Origin: a virus
Lineage: Duplodnaviria > Caudoviricetes
Length of the DNA stretch: 64,000 nucleotides
IMG/VR virus record: IMGVR_UViG_3300009095_000014
Location: 1-64,000 of that record
Direction: 5' to 3' (one strand)
This document shows, one piece after another, positions 42,832 to 64,000 of the stretch (within the stretch, counting starts at the first letter, position 1; each line of letters begins with the position of its first letter). Below the pieces are notes generated by a model that did not search any database, was not told the origin of the DNA, and saw nothing but the letters and a program-made list of their open reading frames with translations. Position numbers and translations under genes: made by a program.

Positions 42832-42840
42832 TCCTGGTCT

Positions 42841-43371: not shown

Positions 43372-43740
43372 ATGTCTAATAAAACTAAGATCATGATGCG
43401 ACGCGATGATGGTAAGCTGGTGCCTATGTCTCGACGCCAGCTGCGCAAACGTAAGGTAATGAAAAGGTTGGACGGTGTCTTACCTGATAATTGCGACTTC
43501 ATCGATACACGTAAAGGAAACGCTCGGTCAAAAGATCGAATTCGAATGCTCGATGATCGACACTCGGTCGCAATCCGTTATTACCTCAATCTCAGCAATG
43601 TGTTGAATACGCTCGAACCTTTGATCGAAGACAGGAAGCAAGTGCCTATTGCTAAACCTCGGTCCTCGAAGGCTAAACTCATTAATAAACTCTATCGTTA
43701 TCTGTCGATGACCAGACGGCAGTTCTTAACAATTCGTTAA
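43372..43740 (+). CDS. Highly basic 122-aa protein, paralog B
   Basis: SRRQLRKRK and KLYRYLS motifs. Confidence 0.7.
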   Translation: MSNKTKIMMRRDDGKLVPMSRRQLRKRKVMKRLDGVLPDNCDFIDTRKGNARSKDRIRMLDDRHSVAIRYYLNLSNVLNTLEPLIEDRKQVPIAKPRSSKAKLINKLYRYLSMTRRQFLTIR

Positions 43741-43760
43741 GCCAGCAGTCGATTCCACAT

Positions 43761-43788
43761 TTTTTCAAACCTACATTGTAGTTGTGAC
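43761..43788 (+). promoter_or_regulatory. Putative early promoter
   Basis: tttttcaaacc TACATTGT agtt GTGAC. Confidence 0.7.
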
Positions 43789-43835
43789 CAGAAGCGTAAC
43801 GCTTCTACTGTTAACCGCCACAAAGGAGATACACC

Positions 43836-44000
43836 ATGCTTCGTTCGTTTCTTATTGGCGCCGTCATCGGCGGCAGTATCCAAGGAGTTCAAATCTACCG
43901 GAACATCCGGCAGATGGAACGGACCCTGGGGTGCGAGGTAAAGCTCGGACTCAAGAACCCTTTCCAGAACAATCAGAAGGAGGAGGACAAACAATGTTAA
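43836..44000 (+). CDS. Microprotein, 54 aa (not in ORF track)
   Basis: AAGGAG RBS; MLRSFLIGAVIGGSIQGVQIYRNIRQMERTLGCEVKLGLKNPFQNNQKEEDKQC. Confidence 0.7.
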   Translation: MLRSFLIGAVIGGSIQGVQIYRNIRQMERTLGCEVKLGLKNPFQNNQKEEDKQC

Positions 44001-44173
44001 GGGCAGTTGCTTTTCTCACCGGCACTGTCGCCGGCGCTCTGGGTGTCAACAAGGCTTTCGAAACCCTTGTCGAGGTCAAGAAGATCGGCGACCTCGACCT
44101 CGCCGACATGACCGCCGAATTGGAGAAATCGTTAGCGGAGGCTCTCTCTCCGCAGCCTGCGAAGCAGCGATAG
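43994..44173 (+). CDS. Microprotein, 59 aa
   Basis: AGGAGG RBS; MLRAVAFLTGTVAGALGVNKAF...; overlaps upstream stop. The ORF-track call from 43784 is over-extended. Confidence 0.7.
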   Translation: MLRAVAFLTGTVAGALGVNKAFETLVEVKKIGDLDLADMTAELEKSLAEALSPQPAKQR

Positions 44174-44178
44174 GAATA

Positions 44179-44220
44179 ATGGCTGGGGGTGATCCCCCCA
44201 GCCATATTCTTTTTTCTTTG
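44179..44220 (+). terminator. Intrinsic terminator
   Basis: atggctggggg / cccccagccat 11-bp stem followed by T tract. Confidence 0.8.
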
Positions 44221-44264
44221 TAAAATCCTATAACTAAAGGCTACCGAGACCGTGAGACATTGTC

Positions 44265-44948
44265 ATGTTCGAAGCACTCTTTTCAAGGCGCCAATTAAGT
44301 GACATTCCCGATGATGCGATTCTGTTTATCGACCCTAGTGACCAGCCTGTTGGCAGCGAGAATATCTTAGACCATTCTAAACTGAAAAACACGTTGACCA
44401 ATTACAATAATGTCACTGTTAGCGATGAAGGTCCTAGCCTAGGTATCAAATCGCTCTACTTTGACGGAGCCCTTTACCGTTACCTTGTTATTGGTTGGAA
44501 TGGCTATACCCCGAACCTACTCACGGGCGATTTTACCATTGACTTTTGGTTCAAGCCTAAAGCCATTGTCAACGGGTTTGGAACTCTGCTGGGTCAATGG
44601 AAACAGGTAGAAAATCTTGGTGGGTTTATCGTGTGCACCAAGGGGGATTCCGTTCAATTCCACATCAGTCCGCACTCCGAAGTCCATGCCCTCCTAGAGA
44701 CTGCGGGTGCGAATTCACAAGGCTGGCATCGGCAGACAGTAGTAAGAGATGGCAATGTGTTCACCCACTATCTCGATGGTGTCCCTGTAAGCACACGCAC
44801 CTTCGCTGGCACCAAAGGACCGATCGATATTCCAATGATCATTGGCGGGTATATCAATAATTCTGGTGCTGTGGCCCCCACGCTCGGATCGCCTTTAAAC
44901 GGCTGGTTAACCCGATTGGGAGTATGGCAGAAAGCGGTCCATCCATAA
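44265..44948 (+). CDS. LamG/concanavalin A-like domain protein
   Basis: 227 aa; GDFTIDFWFK, WHRQTVVRDGNVFTHYLDG, IIGGY, LNGWLTRLGVW; starts MFEALF like the 1-3273 cluster. Confidence 0.8.
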   Translation: MFEALFSRRQLSDIPDDAILFIDPSDQPVGSENILDHSKLKNTLTNYNNVTVSDEGPSLGIKSLYFDGALYRYLVIGWNGYTPNLLTGDFTIDFWFKPKAIVNGFGTLLGQWKQVENLGGFIVCTKGDSVQFHISPHSEVHALLETAGANSQGWHRQTVVRDGNVFTHYLDGVPVSTRTFAGTKGPIDIPMIIGGYINNSGAVAPTLGSPLNGWLTRLGVWQKAVHP

Positions 44949-44949
44949 C

Positions 44950-44985
44950 GGCATAAAAGGGAGCCCGAAGGCTCCCCGATATGCC
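44950..44985. terminator. Bidirectional CATA...TATG hairpin
   Basis: ggcata-aaa-gggagcc CGAA ggctccc-cga-tatgcc between convergent genes. Confidence 0.78.
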
Positions 44986-44992
44986 CATCGCC

Positions 44993-45862
44993 TTACGGCT
45001 TGATGAAGGTCCGACTGGCCTCGGCAATGGCTTCGGTGTAACCGTTGGTCACACGCGCCACGTTCTTGTCGATGGTATCGACGAAGGCCGGAGCAAAGTT
45101 CGGGTTGGTGCCGGTCAGGTTCATGGAGTCCATGATCTTCTGGGCGAAGCGGTTGACGGCCAAGCCGACCTGCTGGATGCCGGTGTACTCGATGGTCAGT
45201 GTGACGTTTTCACCGTCGCTGCTCTTGTCGCGGCGACCGGTATCTTCACCCGCACTGGTCGGGTACATGTTACCGATCAGCCATGCCCGGTTGACCTTGG
45301 TGAAGGTCGGGTCCGGTTCGAAGAACAGCACGGTCATCGCGTAGACATCCGGCAGCAAGTCGGTCGGCTTCTGACCGGTCTTGGTGACGATACCCGGAGC
45401 CTTGGTGTCAGGGTCCATGATCAGCTGAGTGATCCACTGTTCATGGAGGGCCGCAACCGGACGACCATACTTTTCCGGAATGGTCAGGCTCGGGGTCGAA
45501 CGCGCGCGGGTCACGTTCGACGGGGTTTGTTGCATTTCACCCGCGCCGCCTACGGCACTTTCCACGCTGTTCACGGTGAGGGTCTTGTTCAGACCGTCCC
45601 ACGTTTGGGCGTGAAGTTCCACGATGGCCTTGAGGGCCTCGATGTACTTCTGGCCATTGTCCAGCAGCAGGAAGCCCGAGGGGGCTTCGATCAGCTTGGC
45701 AATGACGTTACGCCGCACGTAGTCCGTGTTGGCATGGAAGTAACGCAGGTCGGTTTGGTAACCGTTCTGACCACCAATCGTCAGGTTCACCATCGGTGCA
45801 TCCTGATTCTGGTTGTAGACACGGTTGACGTTGCTCAGAAGCGAGTCCTTATGCCGCGCCAT
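44993..45862 (-). CDS. Tail tube protein (phiKZ gp30-like)
   Basis: 289 aa immediately downstream of the sheath, size matches; IGGQNG, Y.RRNVI, NMYPTS motifs. Confidence 0.82.
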   Translation of the reverse strand: MARHKDSLLSNVNRVYNQNQDAPMVNLTIGGQNGYQTDLRYFHANTDYVRRNVIAKLIEAPSGFLLLDNGQKYIEALKAIVELHAQTWDGLNKTLTVNSVESAVGGAGEMQQTPSNVTRARSTPSLTIPEKYGRPVAALHEQWITQLIMDPDTKAPGIVTKTGQKPTDLLPDVYAMTVLFFEPDPTFTKVNRAWLIGNMYPTSAGEDTGRRDKSSDGENVTLTIEYTGIQQVGLAVNRFAQKIMDSMNLTGTNPNFAPAFVDTIDKNVARVTNGYTEAIAEASRTFIKP

Positions 45863-53272: not shown

Positions 53273-53306
53273 GCATACGGAGGAGGGGTACCCCTCCTCC
53301 GTATGC
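53273..53306. repeat. Perfect 34-bp palindrome, CATA...TATG family, immediately upstream of terminase
   Basis: gcatacggaggaggggtacccctcctccgtatgc is self-complementary; TATG at 53302. Confidence 0.9.
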
Positions 53307-53320
53307 TAAGTGAGCGTTGT

Positions 53321-55558
53321 ATGATTTTGTTTGAAAAGGATTGGGCACGGTTTCCGCGTGCCATTGCTGACTTCAAAACCAGCAACCAGAGTTTCATCGA
53401 TCTGGTGATGTTGTATCGGCACATGGGCGTCAAGAACTGCCTGTTTCCTTTGGCGTTGATGCAACCGGAGCTACAAGGGGTGGACCCCCATGATCCAAAC
53501 TTGGATGAGGTGACCCAAACCCGCATCAAGATTGAATGCAAATTCAACCCGTGGTACTACCTGCGTGAAGTGGTACGCGTACCGCCGGTCTCGGGTGACA
53601 CACCGGTGCAGCTGCGGGCTAACCGCGCCAACATCTCCCTGTGGTGGTGCTTCCTCAACCACATCGACTATTTCCTCGTCCAGATCCGTCAGACGGGTAA
53701 GTCGCTGAACACTGACGTACTGCACAACTGGTACCAAATTTTCGGAACGGAAAACACCCGTGCCAACCTCTTCACCAAAGACGCTGACCTTATTAAAGAA
53801 AACATCGCGCGTCTGAAGAAGATCCGTAAGCTGCTGCCGCCCTATCTGGTTAACATCGTCCGTTCGGACACCGACAACCAGAAAGAGTTCACCAACTACG
53901 GTCAAGGCAACCGTTTGGTGGCTGTACAGGCTCAAGCCAACGAAGACGCGGCACTGAACATCGGTCGTGGATTGACCGCTGCCATGAACCATATCGACGA
54001 AGTGGCATTCCTGCGCTTTGTTCAGATCTCCGTGCCGGCGATGCTGGCAGGTTCGGGTGCAGCGCGTGAAGAAGCGGCTCGTAACGGCTTGCCCTACGGT
54101 AACATCTTCACGTCAACGGCCGGTAAGCTTGACAGTGAAGAAGGTTCCTTTGCCTACAAGCTGCTCAGTGATTCGATGGTCTGGGACGAATGCGTACTGG
54201 ACTGCGAAGATCAGAAGGCCCTGTACAAGGTGGTCAGTGCACGTTGCAAGACAGACTCCTTGATGGTCAACGGGACCTTCAGCCACCGTCAGCTGGGCTT
54301 TACGGATGAATGGCTCCGCAAGCGCATCGCCGATTCTAAGCAGTCCGGTGACGATGCCCGTCGCGACTTCTTGAACGAATGGACGGCCGGTAGTCTTTCT
54401 AACCCGCTGCCCACCTCGGTGCTGGAAACCATTCGCAAGCATGTAATCGACGCACCGTACAGTCAGGTGTTCAGTAGTCTTGGCTACATCATCCGCTGGT
54501 ATGTGCCCAAGGAAGAAGTCGAGAACAAGTTGAGTGGTCGACAGCTGGTCATGGGGGTCGATACCTCCAACGCCACGGGTCGAGACAGTATCACTGGGGT
54601 GATCACTGACGTCAGTACACTGGAAACCGTCGGGGTTTGGTCGATCAATGAAACCAACCTGCAACTGTTCTCGGGTTGGCTGGCGCGTTTGATCGCTAAT
54701 TTCAAGGGGCTGACAGTTGTACCGGAAAACAAGTCAACTTGGATTGCCATCTTGGACTACTTGCTGATTCACTTGCCCACCGTGGGCATTGATCCGGGAC
54801 GGCGGATCTACAGTCAGTTCATCGACCACATCAACGACGGTGACCGAGAAAAGCTGGAGTACAAAGAGTACCTGCGCAATCCCATGTCACCTAACCACTA
54901 CAACCGCTGGCGCCGGTACTTCGGGTTCCCCACCAACGGACCGCTACGTGAACTGCTCTATGGCAGCGTGATTCAAGAAGCGGGTAAGTTGGCAGGTGCG
55001 ATGGTACGAGACAAGGACTTGGCCGCTGAGATCTCGGGACTGGTGGTGAAGAACGGTCGGATTGACCACCGCAATGGTTTCCATGACGACCATGTCATCT
55101 CGTGGCTGTTGACGCACTGGTTCCTGACCTACGCCAAGAACTTGGAACACTACGGGATCGACAAGACCTTGGTCAAACGCAAGCTGCGCGAAATGGCGGT
55201 GGAGACCACCGACTGGCGAGCGGCACGGGAAGCAGAACTGCAAAAACAACTCCGGAATGAGTTGGAAGAAGTCTTGGATAAGATCAAGGTCGCACGAGAC
55301 GAATACCAGATCATGCGACTGGAACACCGACTGAACTCCATCTACGCCCGCTTGGATGTGGGTGGCTTGGGTATGGACGCCGGCAGCATCGACGCCCTGA
55401 TTGAAGAAGCCCGTGATCGCCGTGCGATCGGTAACCGGCAGAAACAACAAGGCGCGCGACAAACCGCTGAACCGGAACGCTATGCGTCGATCAACGGAAC
55501 CGGACGCTTTGGGGGACGGGGCGGATACCAACCGTCCTCTTCGGTGGTGATGTGCTGA
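53321..55558 (+). CDS. terL: Terminase large subunit (phiKZ gp25-like)
   Basis: CKFNPWYYLRE, Walker A RQTGKS, Walker B HIDEVAF, nuclease GVDTS and HDDHVISWLL; start re-called at ATG 53321 (MILFEKDW). Confidence 0.92.
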   Translation: MILFEKDWARFPRAIADFKTSNQSFIDLVMLYRHMGVKNCLFPLALMQPELQGVDPHDPNLDEVTQTRIKIECKFNPWYYLREVVRVPPVSGDTPVQLRANRANISLWWCFLNHIDYFLVQIRQTGKSLNTDVLHNWYQIFGTENTRANLFTKDADLIKENIARLKKIRKLLPPYLVNIVRSDTDNQKEFTNYGQGNRLVAVQAQANEDAALNIGRGLTAAMNHIDEVAFLRFVQISVPAMLAGSGAAREEAARNGLPYGNIFTSTAGKLDSEEGSFAYKLLSDSMVWDECVLDCEDQKALYKVVSARCKTDSLMVNGTFSHRQLGFTDEWLRKRIADSKQSGDDARRDFLNEWTAGSLSNPLPTSVLETIRKHVIDAPYSQVFSSLGYIIRWYVPKEEVENKLSGRQLVMGVDTSNATGRDSITGVITDVSTLETVGVWSINETNLQLFSGWLARLIANFKGLTVVPENKSTWIAILDYLLIHLPTVGIDPGRRIYSQFIDHINDGDREKLEYKEYLRNPMSPNHYNRWRRYFGFPTNGPLRELLYGSVIQEAGKLAGAMVRDKDLAAEISGLVVKNGRIDHRNGFHDDHVISWLLTHWFLTYAKNLEHYGIDKTLVKRKLREMAVETTDWRAAREAELQKQLRNELEEVLDKIKVARDEYQIMRLEHRLNSIYARLDVGGLGMDAGSIDALIEEARDRRAIGNRQKQQGARQTAEPERYASINGTGRFGGRGGYQPSSSVVMC

Positions 55559-55600
55559 CGGCATACAGGGGAGGGCACGAAGCCCTCCCCTGTATGCCGT
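55558..55600. terminator. CATA...TATG family hairpin, 19-bp perfect stem
   Basis: acggcatacaggggagggc ACGAA gccctcccctgtatgccgt. Confidence 0.85.
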
Positions 55601-55620
55601 CTAGGATTAGATCCCAATTC

Positions 55621-55647
55621 TTTTCGATCATACATTGTTCGAGTGAC
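55621..55647 (+). promoter_or_regulatory. Putative early promoter
   Basis: ttttcgatca TACATTGT tcga GTGAC. Confidence 0.68.
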
Positions 55648-55695
55648 AGGGTACACTCAAGTACCTAATAACCCTTTTAGACTAAGGAGTCTAAT

Positions 55696-55860
55696 ATGTT
55701 CCGTGAGATCAATGAAGTGCACGAAATCCGCGAAAGAATCGAACGCCGTAAGCGAAAAGAGTTGGAGAACACCAACCTCTTTCGACTTGCTCAACGTGCT
55801 GTTGAGCAGAAACAGCTCCAAGACCTCCAAAACCTTGACGCACCGATGCGCGTCAAGTAA
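55696..55860 (+). CDS. Microprotein, 54 aa, charged helical (not in ORF track)
   Basis: AAGGAG RBS; MFREINEVHEIRERIERRKRKELENTNLFRLAQRAVEQKQLQDLQNLDAPMRVK. Confidence 0.7.
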   Translation: MFREINEVHEIRERIERRKRKELENTNLFRLAQRAVEQKQLQDLQNLDAPMRVK

Positions 55861-55910
55861 GTAACACCCACCCCCGCCTATAGGGGATTAACGAGGGTGA
55901 CAATCCGGTC

Positions 55911-55944
55911 GCCCCGCACGTCCTAGGAGGACACAGCATGAACA
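55911..55944 (+). promoter_or_regulatory. Conserved translation-initiation leader shared with 61721-61738
   Basis: Identical 18-mer CACGTCCTAGGAGGACAC at 55917-55934 and 61721-61738, both followed by 3 nt + ATGAACA. Confidence 0.8.
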
Positions 55945-56300
55945 AGATCGCCAACCTGACCCAGCACAATGCTACTGAAGAGCAAGTGGCAGCGGGCGTA
56001 TTCGACCTCGTCGGCGAGGATCGAAAGATGTTGGTGAAGCTTCTCACCTTCGCCACCCTCCCCACCAAGGAGGAAATCGAAGAGCGCGCCAAAGCCATCG
56101 CCATGTTGGTGATGGGATGCCGCGCCGCCATGATCGGCGGCGCCCCGTACCTCATGCCCGCTCTCGAGCGTGCACTGAAGGAAGAGGGGGTTATGCCCCT
56201 CTACGCGTTCTCGGAACGCGTGTCGGTCGAGGAACTGTTGGCAGATGGCAGTATACGGAAAATCAACGTGTTCAAACATGTGGGATGGGTCGAGGCGTAA
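55938..56300 (+). CDS. Csx20/Csx15-like small Rossmann-fold protein, candidate cyclic-oligoadenylate ring nuclease or binder
   Basis: NLTQHNATEEQ, AMIGG, and PLYAFSERVSVEE...DGSIRKINVFKHVGW match by eye the Csx20 pattern (FSHxLTxEQ; LIQG; PVYATTxRxSxE...GxxxKxSxFKHVxF). Confidence 0.62.
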   Translation: MNKIANLTQHNATEEQVAAGVFDLVGEDRKMLVKLLTFATLPTKEEIEERAKAIAMLVMGCRAAMIGGAPYLMPALERALKEEGVMPLYAFSERVSVEELLADGSIRKINVFKHVGWVEA

Positions 56301-56413
56301 GTCTCGACCTAGGGCAAAGGAATGTCCAGCTCCCTCGTAAGAGGGAGTATCCCATTGAAGATCTAGACTGGTCTTCAATGGGATACACTTAACCTGAGCA
56401 CTAGGGGTTCAAT

Positions 56414-56728
56414 ATGGAATTCGTCAAAGTAAACTCTCAAGATCTGCAAATCGTTTTTTCGGCAGTGGTCGAACTGATCACCGCCATGGATGTTGCGTTT
56501 GATGTAGTAAAACAGGATTACAAGGTGGCATCCTTGCAATCTGAGCCGATAAAGAACTACTTCGAGGCAATTGCCTCGATCAGTTCTGCAAGTAAATTAT
56601 CGGCAGAACAAACTGCCGATACCATCATGCGCATCAAGGATGCGCAGATTAAGAAGATCACCAGCGAAGGGGTCTACTACCCCCTTCTGCATCGGGAGAT
56701 CAAGGCTTGGCTTGCCAAGCGCTCCTGA
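56414..56728 (+). CDS. Hypothetical protein
   Basis: 104 aa, AGGGG RBS, followed by terminator. Confidence 0.7.
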   Translation: MEFVKVNSQDLQIVFSAVVELITAMDVAFDVVKQDYKVASLQSEPIKNYFEAIASISSASKLSAEQTADTIMRIKDAQIKKITSEGVYYPLLHREIKAWLAKRS

Positions 56729-56732
56729 CAGC

Positions 56733-56775
56733 ATAGAGAGGAGCCTTCGGGCTCCTCTCTATCTTTTTTATTTTC
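56733..56775 (+). terminator. Intrinsic terminator, TTCG loop, gcata foot
   Basis: atagagaggagcc TTCG ggctcctctctat + T tract. Confidence 0.85.
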
Positions 56776-56861
56776 CTACCGACCGTTTCAACCAGATAAA
56801 CAATGCACTGCGCAGATTCCATACGTGCGCGGCGATAACGCTTCGGATTTAACGGACATGG

Positions 56862-58118
56862 TTACCTCGAATAGAAATTCATGGAGAAGGTACGCAGGAC
56901 GATGTACAGGCAAAGGCCCGTACGCACGGCAGCGATCACGGCATCGTTCTTGGATTTCACGCACCGACGAACGATCTTCTCGGACAGGGTACGCATTCCA
57001 AGCACCAGCGGATCAGACGACCTAGAGGCCATATACAGCGAACGCAACTTGGCGATCACGGCACCAACGTCAAGGTTACTGCCCATCAACGACCGGTTGG
57101 CGGCGATGGTGTCAAACGCATGGGTCAGTACATCGTCGACCAAGGTTTCAATCTCCTTGTCGCCGCGCGGACCGTAGTTGACCGAAGTGTAGTCCAACGC
57201 GTCACGAAGCAGCTTCTCCGGCATGACTGGCATGGCGTTGGAAACGATCTTCACCAACTCTTCGCGGATGTAGGAGGGCTTATCGCTGATGACGGTGTGG
57301 ATGTAACGACGGTACGTCTGAAACTGTCGCTGCTTATCACGGGCACTGGTCACCCCGTCGAACGTCACCATGGAACTGGTGGAACGGATCGATGCCTTGG
57401 GGTTCAGGCGGATGGTCTCGAACACATCACGGATGTTGTTGATGATGCTCTTGATCCTACCCTGGATGTCGTTGCACATGTAGACGATCTTGAAGTCATC
57501 GTCAAAATGCGTGATCGTCTTGTAATGGATGCTGTTCTTGGCCAGGATGTCCTTGGTACGGGCATCCAGAAGGGCACCCCATGAACCGTAGACCTTCAGG
57601 CCGTACTTCTTGGTCAGCGCGGCGTAGGTGGCCACGGCGACCGCTTCGTCAGCCGGATGACGGAAATAGAAGGCCAGAATGCTGGTGATGAACTTGTACT
57701 GCATCATCAGGATGGTGTCATGCATCCCAGCTTCTTTTTCACTGGCACTCAAGTGAGGGCTGCTGTAGATGGCATGGGTCAGCCACAGGAACGACATGTT
57801 CATGATGTCACCGGAAACCTTACGCACTTCCTTTCCGGCCGCTCGGTCTTCCGGCGGATACACGGCATCGACGGTGTGCAGGTCTTCTTCCAGAGCAGCC
57901 TCGTCAGCAATGAGGATATCGTCGAACCACCGGTTGCGATCCTCGGGACGGAACCGAACCGGGTGAACCCCCATGAGGTTACCGCCGAAGAAGGCGATGT
58001 GGTCTTCGTTCTTATTGGCGAAGTTCTGGGTGTACTGGCTCAACCGCCGGATAAACGCACGGTCGATCTTCAGGTCGGCACAGCCTTTGGCAAAGACCTG
58101 TTTAACGGAGGGAGACAT
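56862..58118 (-). CDS. Conserved phiKZ-like protein (probable virion component)
   Basis: 418 aa, GAGG RBS; FFGGNLMGVHPVRF, YAALTKKYGLK, DIQGRIK motifs typical of Chimalliviridae core genes. Confidence 0.7.
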   Translation of the reverse strand: MSPSVKQVFAKGCADLKIDRAFIRRLSQYTQNFANKNEDHIAFFGGNLMGVHPVRFRPEDRNRWFDDILIADEAALEEDLHTVDAVYPPEDRAAGKEVRKVSGDIMNMSFLWLTHAIYSSPHLSASEKEAGMHDTILMMQYKFITSILAFYFRHPADEAVAVATYAALTKKYGLKVYGSWGALLDARTKDILAKNSIHYKTITHFDDDFKIVYMCNDIQGRIKSIINNIRDVFETIRLNPKASIRSTSSMVTFDGVTSARDKQRQFQTYRRYIHTVISDKPSYIREELVKIVSNAMPVMPEKLLRDALDYTSVNYGPRGDKEIETLVDDVLTHAFDTIAANRSLMGSNLDVGAVIAKLRSLYMASRSSDPLVLGMRTLSEKIVRRCVKSKNDAVIAAVRTGLCLYIVLRTFSMNFYSR

Positions 58119-58192
58119 AAAACGTCCTCGGTGGAATGTGGTTCATATCACACCATTTGATATAGACCTTTCAATAACAACGGAGTACTCGC

Positions 58193-58657
58193 GTGAGTTA
58201 TCAATCGAAATTCGGATCGCTCTTTGGTGGCGCTGCCAGTCATCTGGAAAGCAAGGGCGAAGGTCCCGTGATTGGCGTCTACATCCCTGAAGGCGCTACG
58301 GTGAGCCACATCCCCAGTGTGGAAGGTTACACGGTGGTTGGTCGCGATTGGTGTGGAACGGCTTCTATGGAAGCCCGTGAGGCCATCCTGCACCATGTAC
58401 GCAAGATGATCGAAAAGGAAGAAGAGGAAGAACGCGAAGAAGAAGATTTCTACGACGACTATTCGCTCTTTGCTATCGTTCCGGAAATCGATCCGTACAT
58501 GATCGACTCGCTGGGTGAGCTGCCCCGTCAAACCGGTGCATGGTTGACCGACAGTGTGGAGAACTACTCCGGCGAAGTACTGGAGAGGGTGCGTCAATCC
58601 TTCGACGTGGATCGGATCTTCCTCAGTTACGAGGAATTCCAAGAAAGCCTGCGTTAA
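58193..58657 (+). CDS. Acidic hypothetical protein
   Basis: 154 aa from GTG (GGAG RBS); EKEEEEEREEEDFYDD tract; an ASME motif. Confidence 0.68.
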   Translation: MSYQSKFGSLFGGAASHLESKGEGPVIGVYIPEGATVSHIPSVEGYTVVGRDWCGTASMEAREAILHHVRKMIEKEEEEEREEEDFYDDYSLFAIVPEIDPYMIDSLGELPRQTGAWLTDSVENYSGEVLERVRQSFDVDRIFLSYEEFQESLR

Positions 58658-58663
58658 ACGCAT

Positions 58664-58693
58664 ATAGAGGGAGGGCACGTGCCCTCCCTCTAT
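58664..58693. terminator. Perfect 30-bp palindrome, CATA...TATG family, convergent junction
   Basis: atagagggagggcacgtgccctccctctat; flanked by gcat and gccg. Confidence 0.85.
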
Positions 58694-58699
58694 GCCGCA

Positions 58700-59614
58700 T
58701 CACTTCACCAAGGCGGTGGTCACACGATACAGGGCGTCTTCCACGTAACGGTCCATCAGGGTTTGACGGAGAGGGACGTTACGCTCGAAGAGTACCTTGA
58801 GGACTTCGGCGTAACGCTTGACGTCGTAGTCGAACGTCTTGGCCAGTTCACCGGTCAGACCCAGGGATTCTGCCTTCGGGATACTACGATCGAACGCATC
58901 GGCGATGATCTCGCGGACCTGGAGTTCTTCCGGGGGCAGTTGCACTTGGTCAGTAAAGGTGAAGGTGTCCAGTTCTTCCAGTTGGACCTGTTCCTCGACC
59001 TTGACCGACGGGGCGAACGATTGGTTCATTTCGGCGCGGTCATCACTGACATCCAGCGTCAACATACCGGTCGGACCACGCAGCACCAGAATGCCCGTGT
59101 GCGGGTCGTAGGTGGCACCCAGACGGATACCGGTGGGAGCGGGAGCGGGAGTGGGGTTCAGGTCCCACGACCGGCAATTGTGGTTGAGCTTCTCGTAGCT
59201 CTCGAAGAGCTTGTCGAAGTCGGGTTCAGGAATGGAGGCATCCACCCCGGCCAGGAACTTCACCGGGTCGGCGAGGTACTCCATTGCGGCCATGAACTTG
59301 GTATCGGGGTTGGCGGATGCCCGCAGGGACAGCTGCTCGTACTGATGTCGGCGATCGTACTTGCTGTAGGCCAGTAGGTCACCGACTTTGCGGTACAGGT
59401 CCTTGATGGCTTCTTCTTCACCGATCTTCGAGTTGTACTTGGCGGGGTTGACCGCACCCGATTGACCCACGGTGACGTAGCCGTTGACCAGATGGCCCAC
59501 GGCCAAGGTAGTCGTGGTCAGTTCAATGAACTGGATGTCGATGGACTTGATGGTATCCTTGATCTGGTCAAGGGTGATGTCATGTAGGTTGAAATGGGGG
59601 AATTGTGCTTTCAT
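58700..59614 (-). CDS. Phage Gp49/Sf6-gp66 (PF13876-like, Acb4-like) domain fused to an unknown ~200-aa C-terminal region
   Basis: Start ATG 59614 (AGGA RBS). ITLDQIKDTI...TTLAVGHLVNGYVTVGQSGAVNPAKYNSKIGEEEAIKDLYRKVGDLLAY fits the family pattern T.CVL.L.NGF.V.G.S.CV.P.NFD..IG...A.....K...L.GY; PTPAPAP linker. Confidence 0.7.
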   Translation of the reverse strand: MKAQFPHFNLHDITLDQIKDTIKSIDIQFIELTTTTLAVGHLVNGYVTVGQSGAVNPAKYNSKIGEEEAIKDLYRKVGDLLAYSKYDRRHQYEQLSLRASANPDTKFMAAMEYLADPVKFLAGVDASIPEPDFDKLFESYEKLNHNCRSWDLNPTPAPAPTGIRLGATYDPHTGILVLRGPTGMLTLDVSDDRAEMNQSFAPSVKVEEQVQLEELDTFTFTDQVQLPPEELQVREIIADAFDRSIPKAESLGLTGELAKTFDYDVKRYAEVLKVLFERNVPLRQTLMDRYVEDALYRVTTALVK

Positions 59615-59863
59615 GGTAATGCTTCCTGTGTAGGGCTGATGTGATAATCTCATCTGATCCTGACATGGAATTTTCTTTTACGGGAAGGTCTGTTATTTTA
59701 TGTCTTCACCACTTCGGTTTTTGGGAAGGGGGGAGACATTTTGATTGCGAGGAACGAGTAATCAAAATGGCGGGGGATGGGTAAGATAATAGCTCTATCT
59801 TCGGCGGAATCTGGAATGGAACGGTAGTGGAATGTAAGATGACAGAGAAGATAGATTCCTACT

Positions 59864-59898
59864 GTAGGCGCGAAGCGCCTACTTTATGCCGTCTTTTT
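59864..59898 (+). terminator. Orphan hairpin followed by TTTATGCCG and T tract
   Basis: gtaggcgc GAA gcgcctac + tttatgccgtctttttt; no upstream + strand gene. Confidence 0.5.
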
Positions 59899-60002
59899 TA
59901 CGCATCATTTAATCTCACCTTACTGTAAAAAAATACAACATTAAAGAAATACAAACACAGTGAGTGATATGAATCGAGCTATATCGCAAGGGGGTTACAG
60001 AC

Positions 60003-60125
60003 GTGGGTGAGTTAGAGCGAGAGAACGATGATGAATGGATCGGAGAGATCATCTGGTCACTGGTAGGGCTACTGGTGCTGTTTGTAGGGACGGGGATGTT
60101 TACGCTCAATGCTTTTCTGAGGTAG
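60003..60125 (+). CDS. Membrane microprotein, 40 aa
   Basis: GTG start after GGGGG; MGELERENDDEWIGEIIWSLVGLLVLFVGTGMFTLNAFLR. Confidence 0.55.
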   Translation: MGELERENDDEWIGEIIWSLVGLLVLFVGTGMFTLNAFLR

Positions 60126-60128
60126 TAT

Positions 60129-60266
60129 ATGAAGCGATGGTGGAACTCCATGTCCCCTAGCGAACGGTTGGCCACTACGACTCTGATCGTGCTGGCTACC
60201 GGTGCAATCGTGCAGATCGTCATGGTTTTCTGCATGTTCTACAACCACTTTCAAGGTGCGCAGTAA
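60129..60266 (+). CDS. Membrane microprotein, 45 aa
   Basis: GAGG RBS; MKRWWNSMSPSERLATTTLIVLATGAIVQIVMVFCMFYNHFQGAQ. Confidence 0.65.
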   Translation: MKRWWNSMSPSERLATTTLIVLATGAIVQIVMVFCMFYNHFQGAQ

Positions 60267-60406
60267 TGAAGACGCTTGTTTTCCGTACACTGTCGGGGAT
60301 GTGTTTCATGTTGATGATCGCGGGTGTACTGTGCTCGATCGTACCGCTGATGGTAACGAGTGCGCTGAGCGCTGCACGCGACTGGCTGGAGGCTAGGGCG
60401 ATCTGA
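60266..60406 (+). CDS. Membrane microprotein, 46 aa
   Basis: TAATG coupling; MKTLVFRTLSGMCFMLMIAGVLCSIVPLMVTSALSAARDWLEARAI. Confidence 0.65.
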   Translation: MKTLVFRTLSGMCFMLMIAGVLCSIVPLMVTSALSAARDWLEARAI

Positions 60407-60415
60407 TTCTAGATT

Positions 60416-60442
60416 TTTTCAATGATACATCACCCTAGTGTA
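60416..60442 (+). promoter_or_regulatory. Degenerate copy of the early promoter motif
   Basis: tttttcaatga TACATCAC ccta GTGTA, same spacing. Confidence 0.45.
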
Positions 60443-60492
60443 GGGGCGTCTCTCATTTGCCCTTATTTTGATAACCAGTTGGAGTAATAACC

Positions 60493-60651
60493 ATGCTGAT
60501 TCTTATCTCGGGTGTGATTGCAGTTCTGGCACTTGGTGCAAAGCTGGTGGTCAGTTCTGGTAACTTTACCGAAACCGTGATTAACACGGTAGACGGTATC
60601 TTCGGCTTGTCTGTGGCTGTATTCACCTTCATAGGGGCAACCGTATCATGA
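60493..60651 (+). CDS. Two-TM microprotein, 52 aa
   Basis: GGAG RBS; MLILISGVIAVLALGAKLVVSSGNFTETVINTVDGIFGLSVAVFTFIGATVS. Confidence 0.7.
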   Translation: MLILISGVIAVLALGAKLVVSSGNFTETVINTVDGIFGLSVAVFTFIGATVS

Positions 60652-60746
60652 AAGATCTATTGAAACCTCTGATCGCGTTGGTGGGCATCCCTTGGGTTAT
60701 CATCATCGCGATCATCGTCCTAGCCGTTGGCTTCGCCAGCATCTAA
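60648..60746 (+). CDS. Membrane microprotein, 32 aa
   Basis: ATGA coupling, GGGG RBS; MKDLLKPLIALVGIPWVIIIAIIVLAVGFASI; followed by hairpin. Confidence 0.65.
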   Translation: MKDLLKPLIALVGIPWVIIIAIIVLAVGFASI

Positions 60747-60758
60747 CCGGTATAAAAC

Positions 60759-60787
60759 GGGAGGGTCATTTGACCCTCCCTTTATGC
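60759..60787 (+). terminator. Hairpin followed by TTTATGC
   Basis: gggagggtc ATTT gaccctccc + tttatgc. Confidence 0.72.
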
Positions 60788-60814
60788 AGTAAATTCAAAA
60801 TAGGAGCAATAACC

Positions 60815-61549
60815 GTGAGTAAACAAAAGCCGAGCAACGTCAAGCTGTTGGAACCAGTACGGCACGGCATGAATGACATACCTAACAATGCAGTTTGCGC
60901 ACTCCACAATTGGAAGCGCTACGCTGTCAATTGGGGTAACTTGGTCTACGATGCCATTTTGCCGGACGACATCGATGATGTAACCATCCCTATCAATGCC
61001 GTGAAACTGGTGGTCAAGTCATACGACAACAAAGACACCTGCCTGACAACGCATTACGTGTCATCGAACTTACCCGAAATCGCATGGTCTCGGGTGTTTA
61101 CACAACTGGCCGATTCCTTGGCATACTACGGCATCGTCCCATTGGAAGCAGTGCGCATCGTCGCTGAATTCAATGTAGAACACGCCAGCGGTTCGCTCAG
61201 CCTTTGGTTGCAGCCGAATATCAACGCTTTCAGAGTTGAAGTGGATGGCGGCACGGTGGAGGTACAAGACCGTTCCGTTACACCTACCCCTGTCGAAGCT
61301 AACCAATTGGTGCTGCTCCAGTGTCAATCGGTCACGGGTGTTATTAAAACCTTGTGGCTGTCGCCGAGGGTGAAAGATACCCGCCCCGGTCCCATTACCA
61401 CCACGTTACTGAACGTCATGCGTCAGATCGAAGGTCACGAGTGGCTCAAGAACAGTCATAAACTGGTGGCCTTCTACTCGCCCCTTGAAAACGTGAATCT
61501 GACAATCCAGTATGTTTGTAAAGGGATAGGTAACATTAGAAAAGTCTAG
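60815..61549 (+). CDS. Hypothetical protein
   Basis: 244 aa from GTG 60815 (AGGAG RBS). Confidence 0.7.
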   Translation: MSKQKPSNVKLLEPVRHGMNDIPNNAVCALHNWKRYAVNWGNLVYDAILPDDIDDVTIPINAVKLVVKSYDNKDTCLTTHYVSSNLPEIAWSRVFTQLADSLAYYGIVPLEAVRIVAEFNVEHASGSLSLWLQPNINAFRVEVDGGTVEVQDRSVTPTPVEANQLVLLQCQSVTGVIKTLWLSPRVKDTRPGPITTTLLNVMRQIEGHEWLKNSHKLVAFYSPLENVNLTIQYVCKGIGNIRKV

Positions 61550-61594
61550 GTATTACCCATCCCAGTTCCGGGAGAGTATCCGTACGAGTGAAGT

Positions 61595-61640
61595 GCATAC
61601 AGGGGAGGCTTCGGTCTCCCCACGTATGTTTCTTTTTTTT
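61595..61640 (+). terminator. TTCG hairpin with CATA...TATG feet and T tract
   Basis: gcatac-a-ggggaggc TTCG gtctcccc-acg-tatgt + T run. Confidence 0.78.
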
Positions 61641-61650
61641 GATTCTAAAC

Positions 61651-61678
61651 TATTTCAAACCTACATTGTTCTGGTGTC
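61651..61678 (+). promoter_or_regulatory. Putative early promoter
   Basis: tatttcaaacc TACATTGT tctg GTGTC. Confidence 0.68.
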
Positions 61679-61741
61679 AAGGAGTAGTCCTCGACAATAA
61701 CCCGTGGCACTGTCGCCACTCACGTCCTAGGAGGACACGCT

Positions 61742-62398
61742 ATGAACAGTTACACTCAACAGATCGAAGCCGCCGCTGCGTACATCGCCCGCCGGGGCTC
61801 GTTGGATACGCTGGAAATGCGTATCATGCGGGAGCTGGATAATCGGTCCAGAAATGTCTTAACCAGCTTCATGGGTGAAGACGCCAACGAAGTCATCGCC
61901 GCCGCTAACCGCGGTGACTTCCTGGCAATCCTCTGGATGACGACCTACGGGTCAGATCCTGCCCGCGTGCAGGAGGGCATCTACCTGAAAACGGATTCGA
62001 TAGCCAAGTACGTGCAGCTGGTCATCGAATCCGACGGGTCCAGTCAAGGCGAGTTGTATAAACTCGCCAAGGCCCTGAACAAGGACGAGGAGGAGGACGG
62101 CTTCCTGCGCTTCTATGCGGAAGCACGCCGCCGTGTCGAGGATCTCCTCATCCGCGACACCAACGCGGAACTCAACCACATCCGCGAAGGGGAAGAAGGG
62201 GAGCGCGCCCTTCTGAACTGGCTGAGGGACCTGTCCGAGGACCAGATCTTTGATCTGAAGACCACTGCAGGGCTCACGGTAGGGCCGTTCCAGTACTACT
62301 GGAACTCCGTCGATTGCCCCGACCGGTGGTCCTTCTTCCTCGAAAGGGGAGGCAGGCTGTTGGAATGGGAGATCCATGGATCTTTCATCCGACAGTGA
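61742..62398 (+). CDS. Hypothetical early protein
   Basis: 218 aa, AGGAGG RBS in the shared leader. Confidence 0.75.
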   Translation: MNSYTQQIEAAAAYIARRGSLDTLEMRIMRELDNRSRNVLTSFMGEDANEVIAAANRGDFLAILWMTTYGSDPARVQEGIYLKTDSIAKYVQLVIESDGSSQGELYKLAKALNKDEEEDGFLRFYAEARRRVEDLLIRDTNAELNHIREGEEGERALLNWLRDLSEDQIFDLKTTAGLTVGPFQYYWNSVDCPDRWSFFLERGGRLLEWEIHGSFIRQ

Positions 62399-62406
62399 TG
62401 GATCGG

Positions 62407-62430
62407 CAGGTAGGGGATATCCCCTACCTG
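62407..62430. terminator. Perfect 24-bp palindrome followed by T tract
   Basis: caggtaggggatatcccctacctg + tctttcttttttt. Confidence 0.78.
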
Positions 62431-62453
62431 TCTTTCTTTTTTTCTTTTGTAAG

Positions 62454-62489: not shown

Positions 62490-62801
62490 TTACAGGTCGA
62501 AGTAGTACTTGCCCGTGAAGCCTTCTTCCTCGACGGTGATCTTGGCTTCCTTGGCCGTCTTCGGCACCAGACCTTCGGCGCGCAGGACCTCCAGCACCTT
62601 ACGGTAGCGAGTGGATTCACGCACGATGTACGGTGACTTACCCGTAAAGTAGAACGCAACGACGGCTTTCATTTCCTTGCCGGACTTGCCGACGAAGGTC
62701 ACGGTGTGCAGAGGTTTGTTTTCCGGAATCAGGTCAGACGGATGGTCTACATCGACGACGTTGATGATGGCGTTGTTAGTGCCCAGCGGAAACGATTTCA
62801 T
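62490..62801 (-). CDS. Hypothetical protein
   Basis: 103 aa, GAGG RBS. Confidence 0.72.
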   Translation of the reverse strand: MKSFPLGTNNAIINVVDVDHPSDLIPENKPLHTVTFVGKSGKEMKAVVAFYFTGKSPYIVRESTRYRKVLEVLRAEGLVPKTAKEAKITVEEEGFTGKYYFDL

Positions 62802-62820: not shown

Positions 62821-63648
62821 TCAATGACGACCGCCGATGATCACGTTCTGAATTCGGCGGTACTTGGTGGTATCCATCATGACAGAAGACACACGCCAGT
62901 GCTCGCGCATGTGGTCTTTGTACATCTGATTGGCGTCGGCGTATGAATCTACGATTTCCCGGAAGCGACCGATGTTCACGCCGGCTCGTAGTTGACCTTC
63001 GTCGAGGGCGATGATCAGCTTGTTGTAAATATGGGCCTTGGTAGCCAAGACCACCAGTTCGCTGAACACGTCGTAATAGGCCGGAGGGACGTTGGCGAAG
63101 TTCGGCTCGTGACTGATCATACAGCGCAGGTACACTTCGTTGCCCATGGCTTGTGCATCACTGACCATTACGGTGTTATCACCGATAAGGGTCACGTACG
63201 CCGAACTGATCGCCGGAATCGGAGCACTGGCTTGGAAAATCCCATTGGCTACATCCAGTAGCGGCGACGCGCCATAGGTGGGCAAGTAGGTGGTCCCGTA
63301 GACATTACCCCGGTTGAAGCTGACCGAGTACACTGCCGTGATCGATCGCCCACCCGTGAGTTCCTTAGGGATTCGGTAGATGAAGTTATACGGGTCGATA
63401 CGTTCCTGCACCAGCCCGACCAAGGGAATGACCGTCTCGATACCCGAGCACAGGTTGACATCAATGGACACCCGCGCATCGACCACTTCCTTGCGGATGA
63501 TCGAATCCACGGATACCCCCAGTTGGTTATCGAGGCTGTACTCTCGACGACTGGGATTATAACGACGCGGCATGAAGGCTTCTTGTAGAACCTCCGCCGG
63601 GATTTCAAACTTCACCCGCTGGATGCAGATGGGGATAAGGTTCATCAC
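62821..63648 (-). CDS. Conserved phiKZ-like protein (probable virion component)
   Basis: 275 aa, AAGGAG RBS; RVKFEIP, LATKAHIYN, IVDSYADA motifs. Confidence 0.68.
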   Translation of the reverse strand: MMNLIPICIQRVKFEIPAEVLQEAFMPRRYNPSRREYSLDNQLGVSVDSIIRKEVVDARVSIDVNLCSGIETVIPLVGLVQERIDPYNFIYRIPKELTGGRSITAVYSVSFNRGNVYGTTYLPTYGASPLLDVANGIFQASAPIPAISSAYVTLIGDNTVMVSDAQAMGNEVYLRCMISHEPNFANVPPAYYDVFSELVVLATKAHIYNKLIIALDEGQLRAGVNIGRFREIVDSYADANQMYKDHMREHWRVSSVMMDTTKYRRIQNVIIGGRH

Positions 63649-63824: not shown

Positions 63825-64000
63825 ATGTCGTCCAATGATCTGATCGTTTCCTACAATGGCCCCGTGGGCACCATGCGTCTGTATGGCTGCGGCGGCGGTG
63901 GTGTGAACATCGCCAAGAACTACGTCAACGCCAAGAAGCCCCGTCCGGGCATCGCCGAGATCTTCACCAGCTTCATCGACACCAGTCGCAGCAACACCGT
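63825..64000 (+). CDS. phuZ: PhuZ phage tubulin, partial (runs off window end)
   Basis: Not in ORF track. MSSNDLIVSYNGPVGTMRLYGCGGGGVNIAK...FIDTSRSNT; GCGGGG T1 loop and IDTS motif; GGAG RBS. Confidence 0.9.
   Translation, partial: MSSNDLIVSYNGPVGTMRLYGCGGGGVNIAKNYVNAKKPRPGIAEIFTSFIDTSRSNT

What the first reader, a model, noticed from the sequence alone, without database searches (positions are those of the whole stretch)
55621..62398. Candidate counter-signalling island between terminase and PhuZ
Seen: about 7 kb containing three early-promoter motifs, a Csx20-like gene, a Gp49/Acb4-like fusion, six microproteins and several orphans. Established: nucleus-forming phages evade DNA-targeting systems but remain exposed to RNA-targeting type III CRISPR and to nucleotide-signalling abortive defences such as CBASS. 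Inference: this region supplies the missing layer by degrading and sequestering second messengers; a ring-nuclease-like enzyme and a sponge close together would cover cyclic oligoadenylates and cyclic dinucleotides.
Basis: inference. Interest (0 to 1): 0.72.

Follow-up and report, generated by a model that had tools for sequence, protein, structure and literature searches.

The report
Phage Csx20-like and Acb4-like accessory genes
Between the terminase and PhuZ genes of a phiKZ-like jumbo phage lie two variable gene slots holding a relative of the Csx20 ring nuclease and an Acb4-type signal-sponge domain, both plausible but untested tools against bacterial nucleotide-signalling immunity.

Summary
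The window is part of an 84.6-kb phiKZ-like (chimallivirus-type) contig. After terL come a repeated promoter-like motif (3 of its 6 copies in the window), a 120-aa Csx20 homologue, a 304-aa protein with an N-terminal Acb4 (PF13876) domain, six micro-ORFs (five are predicted membrane helices) and five orphan genes.

The Csx20-like gene scores below NCBIfam's Csx20 cut-off. It still aligns over its full length with true Csx20 (hhalign 97% probability, E 4.5e-11) and keeps the shared invariant His, Gln, Gly, Tyr, Arg and His. It belongs to a large, mostly viral clade (over 1,450 clusters).

The Acb4 domain passes Pfam's threshold and its model superposes on SPO1 Acb4 (9e4w). It is also modelled as the family's tetramer (score 0.88, best control 0.14). 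Its 200-aa C-terminus has no relatives.

The "island" is not one unit. A core gene (phrog_2921) splits it into two variable slots, and the two candidate genes lie on opposite strands in separate transcription units. No other gene there links to signalling. The nearest relatives, including two near-complete genomes, lack both genes.

Function is inferred, not shown. Viral Csx20 homologues and Acb4 proteins with extensions are already in the literature, so this is a new member of known kinds.

The parts
53303..55558 (+). Large terminase (left flank, core gene)
   Evidence: phrog_2, E 2.2e-48. 53-55% identical to TerL of Pseudomonas phage pPa_SNUABM_DT01 and of IMG/VR relatives.
55610..55645 (+). 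Promoter-like motif copy P1, just after the terL terminator hairpin (55557-55601)
   Evidence: 6 matches in the window against 0.01 expected. Alignment of the six copies.
55696..55860 (+). 54-aa charged helical micro-ORF (m54)
   Evidence: AGGAG ribosome-binding site. Codon score +0.34. No family match.
55938..56300 (+). Csx20-like protein (PF27247 'MJ1673' clade), 120 aa; candidate cyclic-oligoadenylate ring nuclease
   Evidence: NF040559 E 1.6e-7. All 22 homologues scanned hit it. hhalign against true Csx20 gives 97.2% probability, E 4.5e-11. Shared H10, Q16, G68, Y89, R94, G104, F112 and H114. AF2 pLDDT 95.5.
56414..56728 (+). Orphan ORF o104, last gene of the P1 unit; terminator hairpin at 56733-56762
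   Evidence: Codon score +0.31. No family match. Terminator.
56862..58118 (-). Core gene of unknown function (phrog_2921) that splits the region in two
   Evidence: phrog_2921, E 3.4e-133. 41-49% identical in all five relatives.
58193..58657 (+). Orphan acidic ORF o154
   Evidence: Codon score +0.48, against -0.16 for the antisense ORF. No match in phages.
58700..59614 (-). Acb4-family (PF13876) domain at residues ~13-95, fused to an orphan C-terminal region of ~200 aa
   Evidence: Pfam 39.3 and 42.4 bits. Family profile hits PDB 9e4w at E 1e-12. Foldseek top hit is 9e4w, probability 1.0, TM 0.67-0.75. Tetramer model scores 0.88 against best control 0.14. The C-terminus has no homologue.
59655..59905 (+). 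Non-coding, G-rich, low-GC stretch ending in a hairpin plus T-run; possible small RNA
   Evidence: ORFs here have negative codon scores. Fold z-score -2.5. No Rfam match.
60003..60406 (+). Three tandem micro-ORFs of 40, 45 and 46 aa, each with one predicted membrane helix
   Evidence: Overlapping or abutting stops and starts, ribosome-binding sites, maximum hydropathy 2.1-2.6. Weakly positive codon scores.
60405..60440 (+). Promoter-like motif copy P2
60493..60746 (+). Two more membrane micro-ORFs (52 and 32 aa), followed by a hairpin at 60759-60780
60816..61549 (+). Orphan ORF o244. GTG start with an AGGAG site; the longer TTG start would span the hairpin
   Evidence: Sequence. Weak codon score. 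No family match.
61641..61676 (+). Promoter-like motif copy P3
61742..62398 (+). Orphan ORF o218; terminator at 62405-62432
   Evidence: Codon score +0.42. No relatives found in the atlas. Terminator.
62490..62801 (-). Orphan ORF o103
   Evidence: Codon score +0.72. No family match.
62821..63648 (-). Core gene DUF7484 (right border of the second variable slot)
   Evidence: PF24302, E 5e-81. Present in all relatives.
63825..64000 (+). Start of PhuZ (tubulin-like); continues to 64823 of the contig
   Evidence: 332-aa ORF. 34-40% identical to the relatives' PhuZ, including the DT01 gene annotated PhuZ-like.

Best explanation
The stretch between terL and phuZ is two hypervariable accessory slots on either side of a core gene (phrog_2921). 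It is not one functional island.

Slot A (55.6-56.8 kb) is a small transcription unit. It runs from a phage-specific promoter-like motif to a terminator and encodes a 54-aa protein, a Csx20-family protein and an orphan. The Csx20-like protein most likely acts as a dimeric, metal-independent phosphodiesterase. It would linearise cyclic oligoadenylates (cA4, perhaps cA3) made by type III CRISPR, and possibly by CBASS. This would switch off CARF/SAVED effectors in the way AcrIII-1 does.

Slot B (58.1-62.8 kb) holds, on the opposite strand, an Acb4-family domain. This domain most likely forms the family's tetrameric pinwheel and sequesters cyclic dinucleotides. It is fused to a 200-aa region of unknown role. 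Slot B also holds five tiny membrane proteins and four orphans, none with any shown link to signalling.

Shown: gene structure, family homology, conserved residues, the fold of the Acb4 domain, and variability among relatives. Inferred: enzymatic or sponge activity, the targets, promoter timing, and any cooperation between the two genes.
For: Csx20-like protein:
- It matches NF040559 at E 1.6e-7, and 22 of 22 family members scanned also hit that model.
- The same model rings over its cut-off on M. jannaschii, whose MJ1673 names Pfam PF27247, the family carried by this protein's homologues.
- Profile-profile comparison with 15 true Csx20 from Campylobacterota gives 97.2% probability, E 4.5e-11, over residues 7-119.
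- The joint alignment keeps H10, Q16, G68, Y89, R94, G104, F112 and H114.
- Csx20 is a cA4 ring nuclease that also cuts cA3 at high enzyme concentration (10.1101/2024.09.24.614671).
- The clade has over 1,450 clusters and is mostly viral. It occurs in unrelated phage types as a stand-alone gene.

Acb4 domain:
- It passes the Pfam gathering threshold.
- A profile of the domain and its relatives hits 9e4w at E 1e-12.
- Foldseek's best hit is 9e4w, rmsd about 2 A over 71-74 residues.
- The four-copy model scores 0.88, with best control 0.14. The three runs agree in at least 91% of contacts, and the partner's pLDDT is at least 82. That mark was reached by 20 of 30 solved homomers and 1 of 23 monomers.
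- The modelled interfaces (strands 30-53; loop 42-46 against helix 80-91) match the published beta-sandwich and 'joint' contacts (paper section).
- The aromatic stack and the adenine-pocket residues Y, N and I are kept.

Variability:
- Relatives share only g555, terL, phrog_2921, DUF7484 and PhuZ.
- DT01 (complete) and a 94%-complete relative lack both families anywhere (positive control).

Biology:
- Type III CRISPR protects against nucleus-forming jumbo phages through cOA-activated nucleases (10.1101/2022.06.20.496707).
Against: - The Csx20-like protein scores 31.7 bits against a curated cut-off of 70.
- Its fold search gives only generic Rossmann-type matches (best Z 6.8). CARF and SAVED proteins appear at Z 4.5-4.8.
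- Cellular copies of this clade have no Cas families nearby. In Patescibacteria they lie beside housekeeping genes and TrmB-type regulators. The clade's substrate therefore need not be a CRISPR signal.
- The host and its defences are unknown.
- In the Acb4 domain, the positions equivalent to SPO1 Y57, T70 and K81 (phosphate contacts) are V, E and D. A family-conserved Cys is Ala.
- The Acb4-fusion gene has no copy of the promoter-like motif upstream.
- Two thirds of that protein is an orphan region modelled at low confidence.
- The tetramer pass may reflect the model's memory of 9e4w.
- No experiment of any kind bears on this phage.
Confidence: 0.6

Rival explanations
1. The whole 7 kb is one coordinated counter-signalling island, and most of its ORFs, including the micro-proteins and orphans, act against nucleotide-signalling defences.
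For: Two candidate anti-signalling genes lie within 3.3 kb. The content is variable among relatives. Three copies of one promoter-like motif suggest common regulation. Pasteurella phage Pm86 also carries both families.
Against: A core gene on the other strand splits the region. The Acb4 fusion is on the minus strand and has no motif copy. At least five terminator-bounded units exist. None of the other ORFs has any detectable family. The same motif also drives an unrelated cluster of small genes at 41.8-45 kb.
Confidence: 0.12
2. The phage clade of MJ1673/Csx20-like proteins does not degrade CRISPR cyclic oligoadenylates. It acts on, or merely binds, another nucleotide: a CBASS or other signal, or a metabolic nucleotide. 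On this reading the gene is a general nucleotide-handling accessory gene.
For: It is below the Csx20 cut-off. Only 21-25% of residues are identical to true Csx20. The 56 cellular loci span Patescibacteria, DPANN archaea and Proteobacteria, with no Cas neighbours among 150 ORFs scanned. One genome holds both a true Csx20 and a copy of the phage clade, which suggests distinct roles.
Against: The residues invariant in true Csx20 (His, Gln, Gly, Tyr, Arg, His) are all kept. Homologues of csx20 sit in phage anti-CRISPR operons controlled by Aca14 (PMC13551039). Many of the 'cellular' contigs carry phage genes such as ERF, Gam and NinG.
Confidence: 0.2
3. The Acb4-like domain serves only as an oligomerisation or RNA-binding (dsRBD-like) module for the unknown C-terminal region. 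On this reading the protein is not a nucleotide sponge.
For: Acb4 has a dsRBD-like fold. Three phosphate-contact positions are V, E and D, and a conserved Cys is lost. Two thirds of the protein is a separate region that codes strongly (codon score 0.70). No early-type motif lies upstream.
Against: All eight diverse PF13876 homologues tested bound 3'3'-cGAMP, and some had extensions. The adenine pocket and stacking aromatic are kept. The tetramer interfaces are reproduced in the model.
Confidence: 0.25

Closest known systems
Csx20, a CRISPR-associated cA4 ring nuclease (NCBIfam NF040559; Pfam PF27247 MJ1673)
   Same: Same length of about 120-125 aa. Collinear full-length homology (hhalign 97%). 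Shared invariant His, Gln, Gly, Tyr, Arg, Gly, Phe and His. Alpha/beta Rossmann-like fold with a C-terminal hairpin.
   Different: Only 21-25% identity and 31.7 bits against a 70-bit cut-off. Encoded by a phage with no cas genes nearby. Belongs to a separate, mostly viral clade with its own motifs (NLTQH, MIGGAPYLM). Activity untested.
AcrIII-1 (DUF1874), the viral ring nuclease anti-CRISPR
   Same: Proposed role: a small phage enzyme that destroys cA4 to disarm type III effectors.
   Different: Unrelated family and fold; no Pfam hit. AcrIII-1 is experimentally proven, whereas this protein is not.
csx20 homologues in phage and prophage anti-CRISPR operons with Aca14 (PMC13551039); Csx20 found in five phage genomes (10.1101/2024.09.24.614671)
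   Same: Phage-borne Csx20 relatives already proposed as co-opted counter-defence genes. Pasteurella phage Pm86 matches the window protein.
   Different: No RHH (Aca14-type) regulator is detectable beside the window gene. Here the carrier is a phiKZ-like jumbo phage.
Acb4 of Bacillus phage SPO1 (PDB 9e4w; PF13876)
   Same: Passes the Pfam threshold. Same fold (TM 0.67-0.75). Modelled tetramer with the same two interfaces. Aromatic stack and adenine pocket conserved.
   Different: 304 aa rather than 96, with an orphan 200-aa C-terminus. The guanine-specific K36 and E49 and the phosphate contacts Y57, T70 and K81 are not conserved. About 22% identity.

Membership tests
Csx20 (NCBIfam NF040559) | Score over the curated equivalog cut-off (70 bits) | tested here: not met
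   31.7 bits, E 1.6e-7, covering only residues 63-117; 29.7 bits.
Csx20 / MJ1673 superfamily (Pfam PF27247) | Full-length sequence homology with bona fide Csx20 and retention of its invariant residues | tested here: met
   A 96%-identical protein and all close homologues carry PF27247. hhalign 97.2%, E 4.5e-11, residues 7-119. H10, Q16, G68, Y89, R94, G104, F112 and H114 are shared.
Csx20 (as a CRISPR-associated gene) | Located in or beside a type III CRISPR-cas locus | tested here: not met
   The gene is phage-borne, between terL and a core phage gene. No Cas family appears among 150 neighbour ORFs of 22 cellular homologues.
Csx20 / ring nucleases | CARF-like fold | tested here: inconclusive
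   High-confidence model. Searches give generic Rossmann-type hits (Z 6.8), with Crn1, Csm6, SAVED and VC1899 only at probability 0.89 or Z 4.5-4.8.
Csx20 / ring nucleases | Cleaves cA4 to linear products | not testable with these tools
   Needs purified protein and an HPLC or TLC assay.
Acb4 (Pfam PF13876) | Score over Pfam's gathering threshold (27 bits) | tested here: met
   39.3 bits and 42.4 bits. A profile with its relatives hits 9e4w at E 1e-12.
Acb4 | alpha-beta3-alpha fold of SPO1 Acb4 | tested here: met
   N-terminal domain pLDDT above 90. Foldseek top ten hits are all 9e4w chains, probability 1.0, rmsd 1.8-2.2 A.
Acb4 | Homotetramer with beta-sandwich and 'joint' interfaces | tested here: met
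   This is a model, not a measurement. Score 0.88 against best control 0.14. The runs agree in at least 91% of contacts, and pLDDT is at least 82. The mark was reached by 20 of 30 solved homomers and 1 of 23 monomers. The pass may be memory of 9e4w.
Acb4 | Ligand-contact residues of the cGAMP pocket | tested here: inconclusive
   Equivalents of F48, F62, N63 and I66 are kept as Y, Y, N and I. Equivalents of K36, E49, Y57, T70 and K81 are T, V, V, E and D. The family consensus also differs from SPO1 at these positions.
Acb4 | Binds CBASS cyclic dinucleotides | not testable with these tools
   Needs an EMSA or ITC with labelled ligands.
AcrIII-1 / Crn2 (DUF1874) | DUF1874 domain | tested here: not met
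   No Pfam match at E up to 0.1 for any ORF of the region.
Hypervariable accessory region of a phage genome | Flanked by conserved core genes, with content not shared by relatives | tested here: met
   tblastn finds only g555, terL, phrog_2921, DUF7484 and PhuZ in five relatives. terL and phrog_2921 are adjacent in three relatives. The second slot is 3.2-4.7 kb of unrelated genes in each.

The most novel reading that the evidence does not exclude
The NLTQH/MIGGAPYLM clade of MJ1673/Csx20-like proteins is a very widespread, mainly viral family of ring nucleases. With over 1,450 clusters in metagenomes but only three hits in cultured phages, it would far outnumber AcrIII-1. It would give nucleus-forming jumbo phages and many other phages a general way to erase cyclic-oligoadenylate signals. 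In this phage it would be paired with an Acb4 sponge whose orphan C-terminal region adds a second, new activity.
Probability: 0.3. Interest if true: 0.7.

Novelty: new member of a known kind. Interest (0 to 1): 0.5.

Why it matters
Nucleus-forming jumbo phages shield their DNA, but type III CRISPR can still stop them by sensing their mRNA and signalling with cyclic oligoadenylates. No counter-measure of such phages against that signal turned up in the papers searched here.

A Csx20-type enzyme under a phage promoter would be a direct answer, and it is easy to test. The wider point is that this clade is large, highly conserved (45-63% identity across phages of unrelated types and hosts) and nearly invisible in cultured phage collections. 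One biochemical test could therefore annotate more than a thousand metagenomic proteins.

The Acb4 fusion offers a natural case for studying what extensions add to a sponge.

Tried and rejected
- Megablast of the region against cultured phages found no match.
- phmmer of both candidate proteins against PDB sequences found nothing meaningful.
- Fold search of the Csx20-like model in the PDB gave no specific match by Foldseek or by the wide aligner, only generic Rossmann-type folds. This says nothing against a CARF relationship.
- Word-based homologue searches for the Acb4 fusion found only near-identical fragments.
- The full HMMER scan hit residues 101-186 of the fusion in three large proteins (P0123, P0124, P0162). 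These look like matches of biased composition to repeat regions, not homology.
- The C-terminal 204 aa has no match in phages.
- I considered the 54-aa ORF upstream of the Csx20-like gene as a conserved partner, because another chimallivirus contig also has a 54-aa ORF there. The two are unrelated in sequence.
- An RHH (Aca14-type) regulator next to the gene was not detected.
- o154 shares only a 13-residue N-terminal patch with DT01 gp114 (E 0.03), so I did not take it as homology.
- The antisense ORFs (151, 176, 232, 235 and 106 aa) have negative codon scores and were rejected as genes.
- Rfam found nothing credible in the region.
- Atlas look-alikes of o218 were at noise level.


Full report
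WHAT THE DNA IS

The window is the first 64 kb of an 84.6-kb IMG/VR viral contig, estimated about 30% complete. Its terminase (53303-55558) is 53-55% identical to that of Pseudomonas phage pPa_SNUABM_DT01 and to several metagenomic phiKZ-like contigs. A 332-aa tubulin-like ORF starts at 63825 and runs past the window end. It matches the DT01 gene annotated as PhuZ-like. The phage is therefore a phiKZ-like jumbo phage. That it forms a nucleus is inferred from this kinship; I did not look for chimallin.

GENE MAP

A codon-usage score trained on six confident genes separates real frames from antisense ones.
- Supported: m54 (55696-55860, +0.34), the Csx20-like gene (55938-56300, +0.51), o104 (56414-56728, +0.31), o154 (58193-58657, +0.48), the Acb4 fusion (58700-59614, minus strand, +0.68 and equally high in both halves), o218 (61742-62398, +0.42) and o103 (62490-62801, minus strand, +0.72).
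- Weak but positive: the five micro-ORFs at 60003-60746 (0.09-0.42) and o244 (60816-61549).
- All long antisense ORFs score negative.

The five micro-ORFs each have a ribosome-binding site and one strongly hydrophobic helix. Their stops and starts overlap or abut.

One gene in the region is not accessory. The 418-aa phrog_2921 protein (56862-58118, minus strand) is conserved in every relative.

THE REPEATED MOTIF

GATYC-N8-TTYNA-N4-ACAT-N7-GTG occurs six times in the window, all on the + strand and all in gaps before small genes. Shuffled sequence gives 0.01 copies (alignment). The pattern was derived from these sites, but the excess is far beyond chance.
- Three copies lie in the region, at 55610, 60405 and 61641.
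- The other three, at 41820, 42227 and 43751, head another cluster of small genes.

Together with hairpin terminators the motif defines short units:
- P1 to m54, the Csx20-like gene and o104, ending at the terminator at 56733.
- P2 to two membrane micro-ORFs, ending at the hairpin at 60759.
- P3 to o218, ending at the terminator at 62405.

Calling the motif an early promoter is inference. No transcript data were examined.

THE CSX20-LIKE PROTEIN

- NCBIfam's Csx20 model matches at E 1.6e-7 but only 31.7 bits (cut-off 70), and only over the C-terminal half.
- All 22 homologues scanned hit the same model.
- Homologues are abundant. There are 1,453 clusters at E up to 1e-3, typically 53-63% identical, and all listed ones carry Pfam PF27247 "MJ1673".
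- The Csx20 model rings over its cut-off on M. jannaschii, so PF27247 and Csx20 cover the same superfamily.

To test the link directly I collected true Csx20 genes from Campylobacterota; 38 of 301 genomes have one over the cut-off. I aligned 15 of them and compared profiles. The result was 97.2% probability, E 4.5e-11, over 108 columns spanning residues 7-119 of the window protein. In a joint alignment H10, Q16, G68 and F112 are invariant. Y89, R94, G104 and H114 are nearly so. These are the same positions that are invariant within true Csx20.

The AF2 model is confident (pLDDT 95.5). H10 sits in the loop after strand 1 and the Gly-Gly in the loop after the third strand. This is where CARF-type domains bind ligand; that reading is my inference. 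Structure searches were unspecific.

Csx20 itself degrades cA4, and cA3 at higher enzyme concentration (10.1101/2024.09.24.614671).

WHERE THE CLADE LIVES

Contigs carrying close homologues are phages of quite different kinds:
- other phiKZ-like phages, where the gene sits next to the tail tube rather than after terL;
- a lambdoid siphovirus with NinB, NinG and RusA;
- several others.

Atlas clusters are 50-82% viral. Cultured phages hold only three hits: Rhodothermus RM378, Pasteurella Pm86 and Fusobacterium JD-Fnp4.

Among 185,579 species genomes, 56 loci were found, from Patescibacteria to DPANN archaea. Their neighbours include phage genes and, in Patescibacteria, TrmB-type regulators and housekeeping genes, but no Cas families. 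This is the main reason for keeping a rival reading in which the clade's substrate is not a CRISPR signal.

THE ACB4 FUSION

- PF13876 is matched above threshold, and PF13876 is the Acb4 sponge family.
- A profile of the N-terminal domain with 25 relatives found by full HMMER search hits SPO1 Acb4 (9e4w) at E 1e-12.
- In the AF2 model of the N-terminal domain, the blocks covering residues 11-90 have pLDDT of 90 or more. Foldseek's top ten hits are all 9e4w chains.
- Four copies of the domain are modelled as a tetramer with score 0.88, against best control 0.14. The three runs agree in at least 91% of contacts, and the partner's pLDDT is at least 82. The mark was reached by 20 of 30 solved homomers and 1 of 23 monomers; these counts hold only roughly for four copies.
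- The contacts reproduce the published sheet-to-sheet and "joint" interfaces. This may be memory of the solved structure.

I mapped the SPO1 ligand contacts through the alignment. The stacking aromatic and the adenine pocket are kept. The guanine-specific pair and three phosphate contacts are not. The family consensus also differs from SPO1 at those positions, yet all eight tested homologues bound cGAMP.

The remaining 200 aa code strongly but have no homologue anywhere searched, and they fold at low confidence.

IS IT AN ISLAND?

Five relatives share only g555, terL, phrog_2921, DUF7484 and PhuZ with this stretch.
- In three relatives terL and phrog_2921 are adjacent, so slot A is a 1.3-kb insertion.
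- Between phrog_2921 and DUF7484, every relative has 3.2-4.7 kb of different small genes.
- Neither family is present anywhere in complete DT01 or in a 94%-complete relative (control).

But it is two slots, not one. The two candidate genes are in different units on opposite strands, and nothing ties the other ORFs to signalling.

COMPARISON WITH WHAT IS KNOWN

- Viral Csx20 homologues have been reported in five phage genomes.
- They have been proposed as co-opted counter-defence genes in operons controlled by Aca14.
- Acb4 homologues with extensions are noted by the authors who discovered the family.
- Type III CRISPR is known to act against nucleus-forming phages.

What is new here is modest:
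- a Csx20-clade gene in phiKZ-like phages;
- its pairing with an Acb4 domain (also seen in Pm86);
- the size and mainly viral nature of the clade;
- the shared invariant residues that make a catalytic role likely.

VERDICT

The finding is a new member of known kinds, of moderate interest, and is directly testable at the bench.

Noticed in passing
window 55917-55934 and 61721-61738: An identical 18-nt leader (CACGTCCTAGGAGGACAC) lies just before the start codons of the Csx20-like gene and of the unrelated o218. There are 2 copies against 0.02 expected. It can pair GTCCT with AGGAC around the ribosome-binding site.
   Followed up: partly
window 59655-59905 (+): A 250-nt non-coding, G-rich, low-GC stretch (GC 0.43, GC skew 0.27) between the Acb4 fusion and the micro-ORFs. 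It folds better than shuffles (z -2.5) and ends in a hairpin plus T-run. No Rfam family matches. Possibly a small RNA.
   Followed up: partly
window 41820-45000: Three more copies of the same promoter-like motif head a second cluster of small + strand ORFs (87, 155, 122, 54/129 and 227 aa) inside the structural region.
   Followed up: no
MH238467.1 (Pasteurella phage Pm86) 55546-55716 and 26887-27096: This cultured phage carries both a Csx20-clade match and an Acb4-family match, so the two families co-occur in at least one unrelated phage.
   Followed up: no
L037, L043, L048, L049, L057, L060 (Patescibacteria / Saccharibacteria contigs): Homologues of the phage Csx20-like clade lie on long Patescibacteria/Saccharibacteria contigs. 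Across the 22 cellular loci scanned, which include these, TrmB-type regulators were neighbours in 8 ORFs and RNase Y in 3. This hints at a cellular role unrelated to CRISPR.
   Followed up: partly
G008 (Campylobacteraceae MAG): L075 1501-1860 and L079 1501-1851: One genome holds both a canonical Csx20 (138 bits) and a copy of the phage-type clade (34 bits).
   Followed up: no
contig 65799-69564 (beyond the window end): A run of about nine tandem + strand ORFs of 100-160 aa lies directly after PhuZ, many starting with acidic, helix-rich sequence. Seen only in the ORF list.
   Followed up: no
L008 5895-6284, L010 5596-5985, L002 20376-20720: Relatives carry a small predicted membrane protein next to DUF7484 in the same variable slot. 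Small membrane proteins are therefore a recurring feature of this slot, although they are not homologous to the five here.
   Followed up: no
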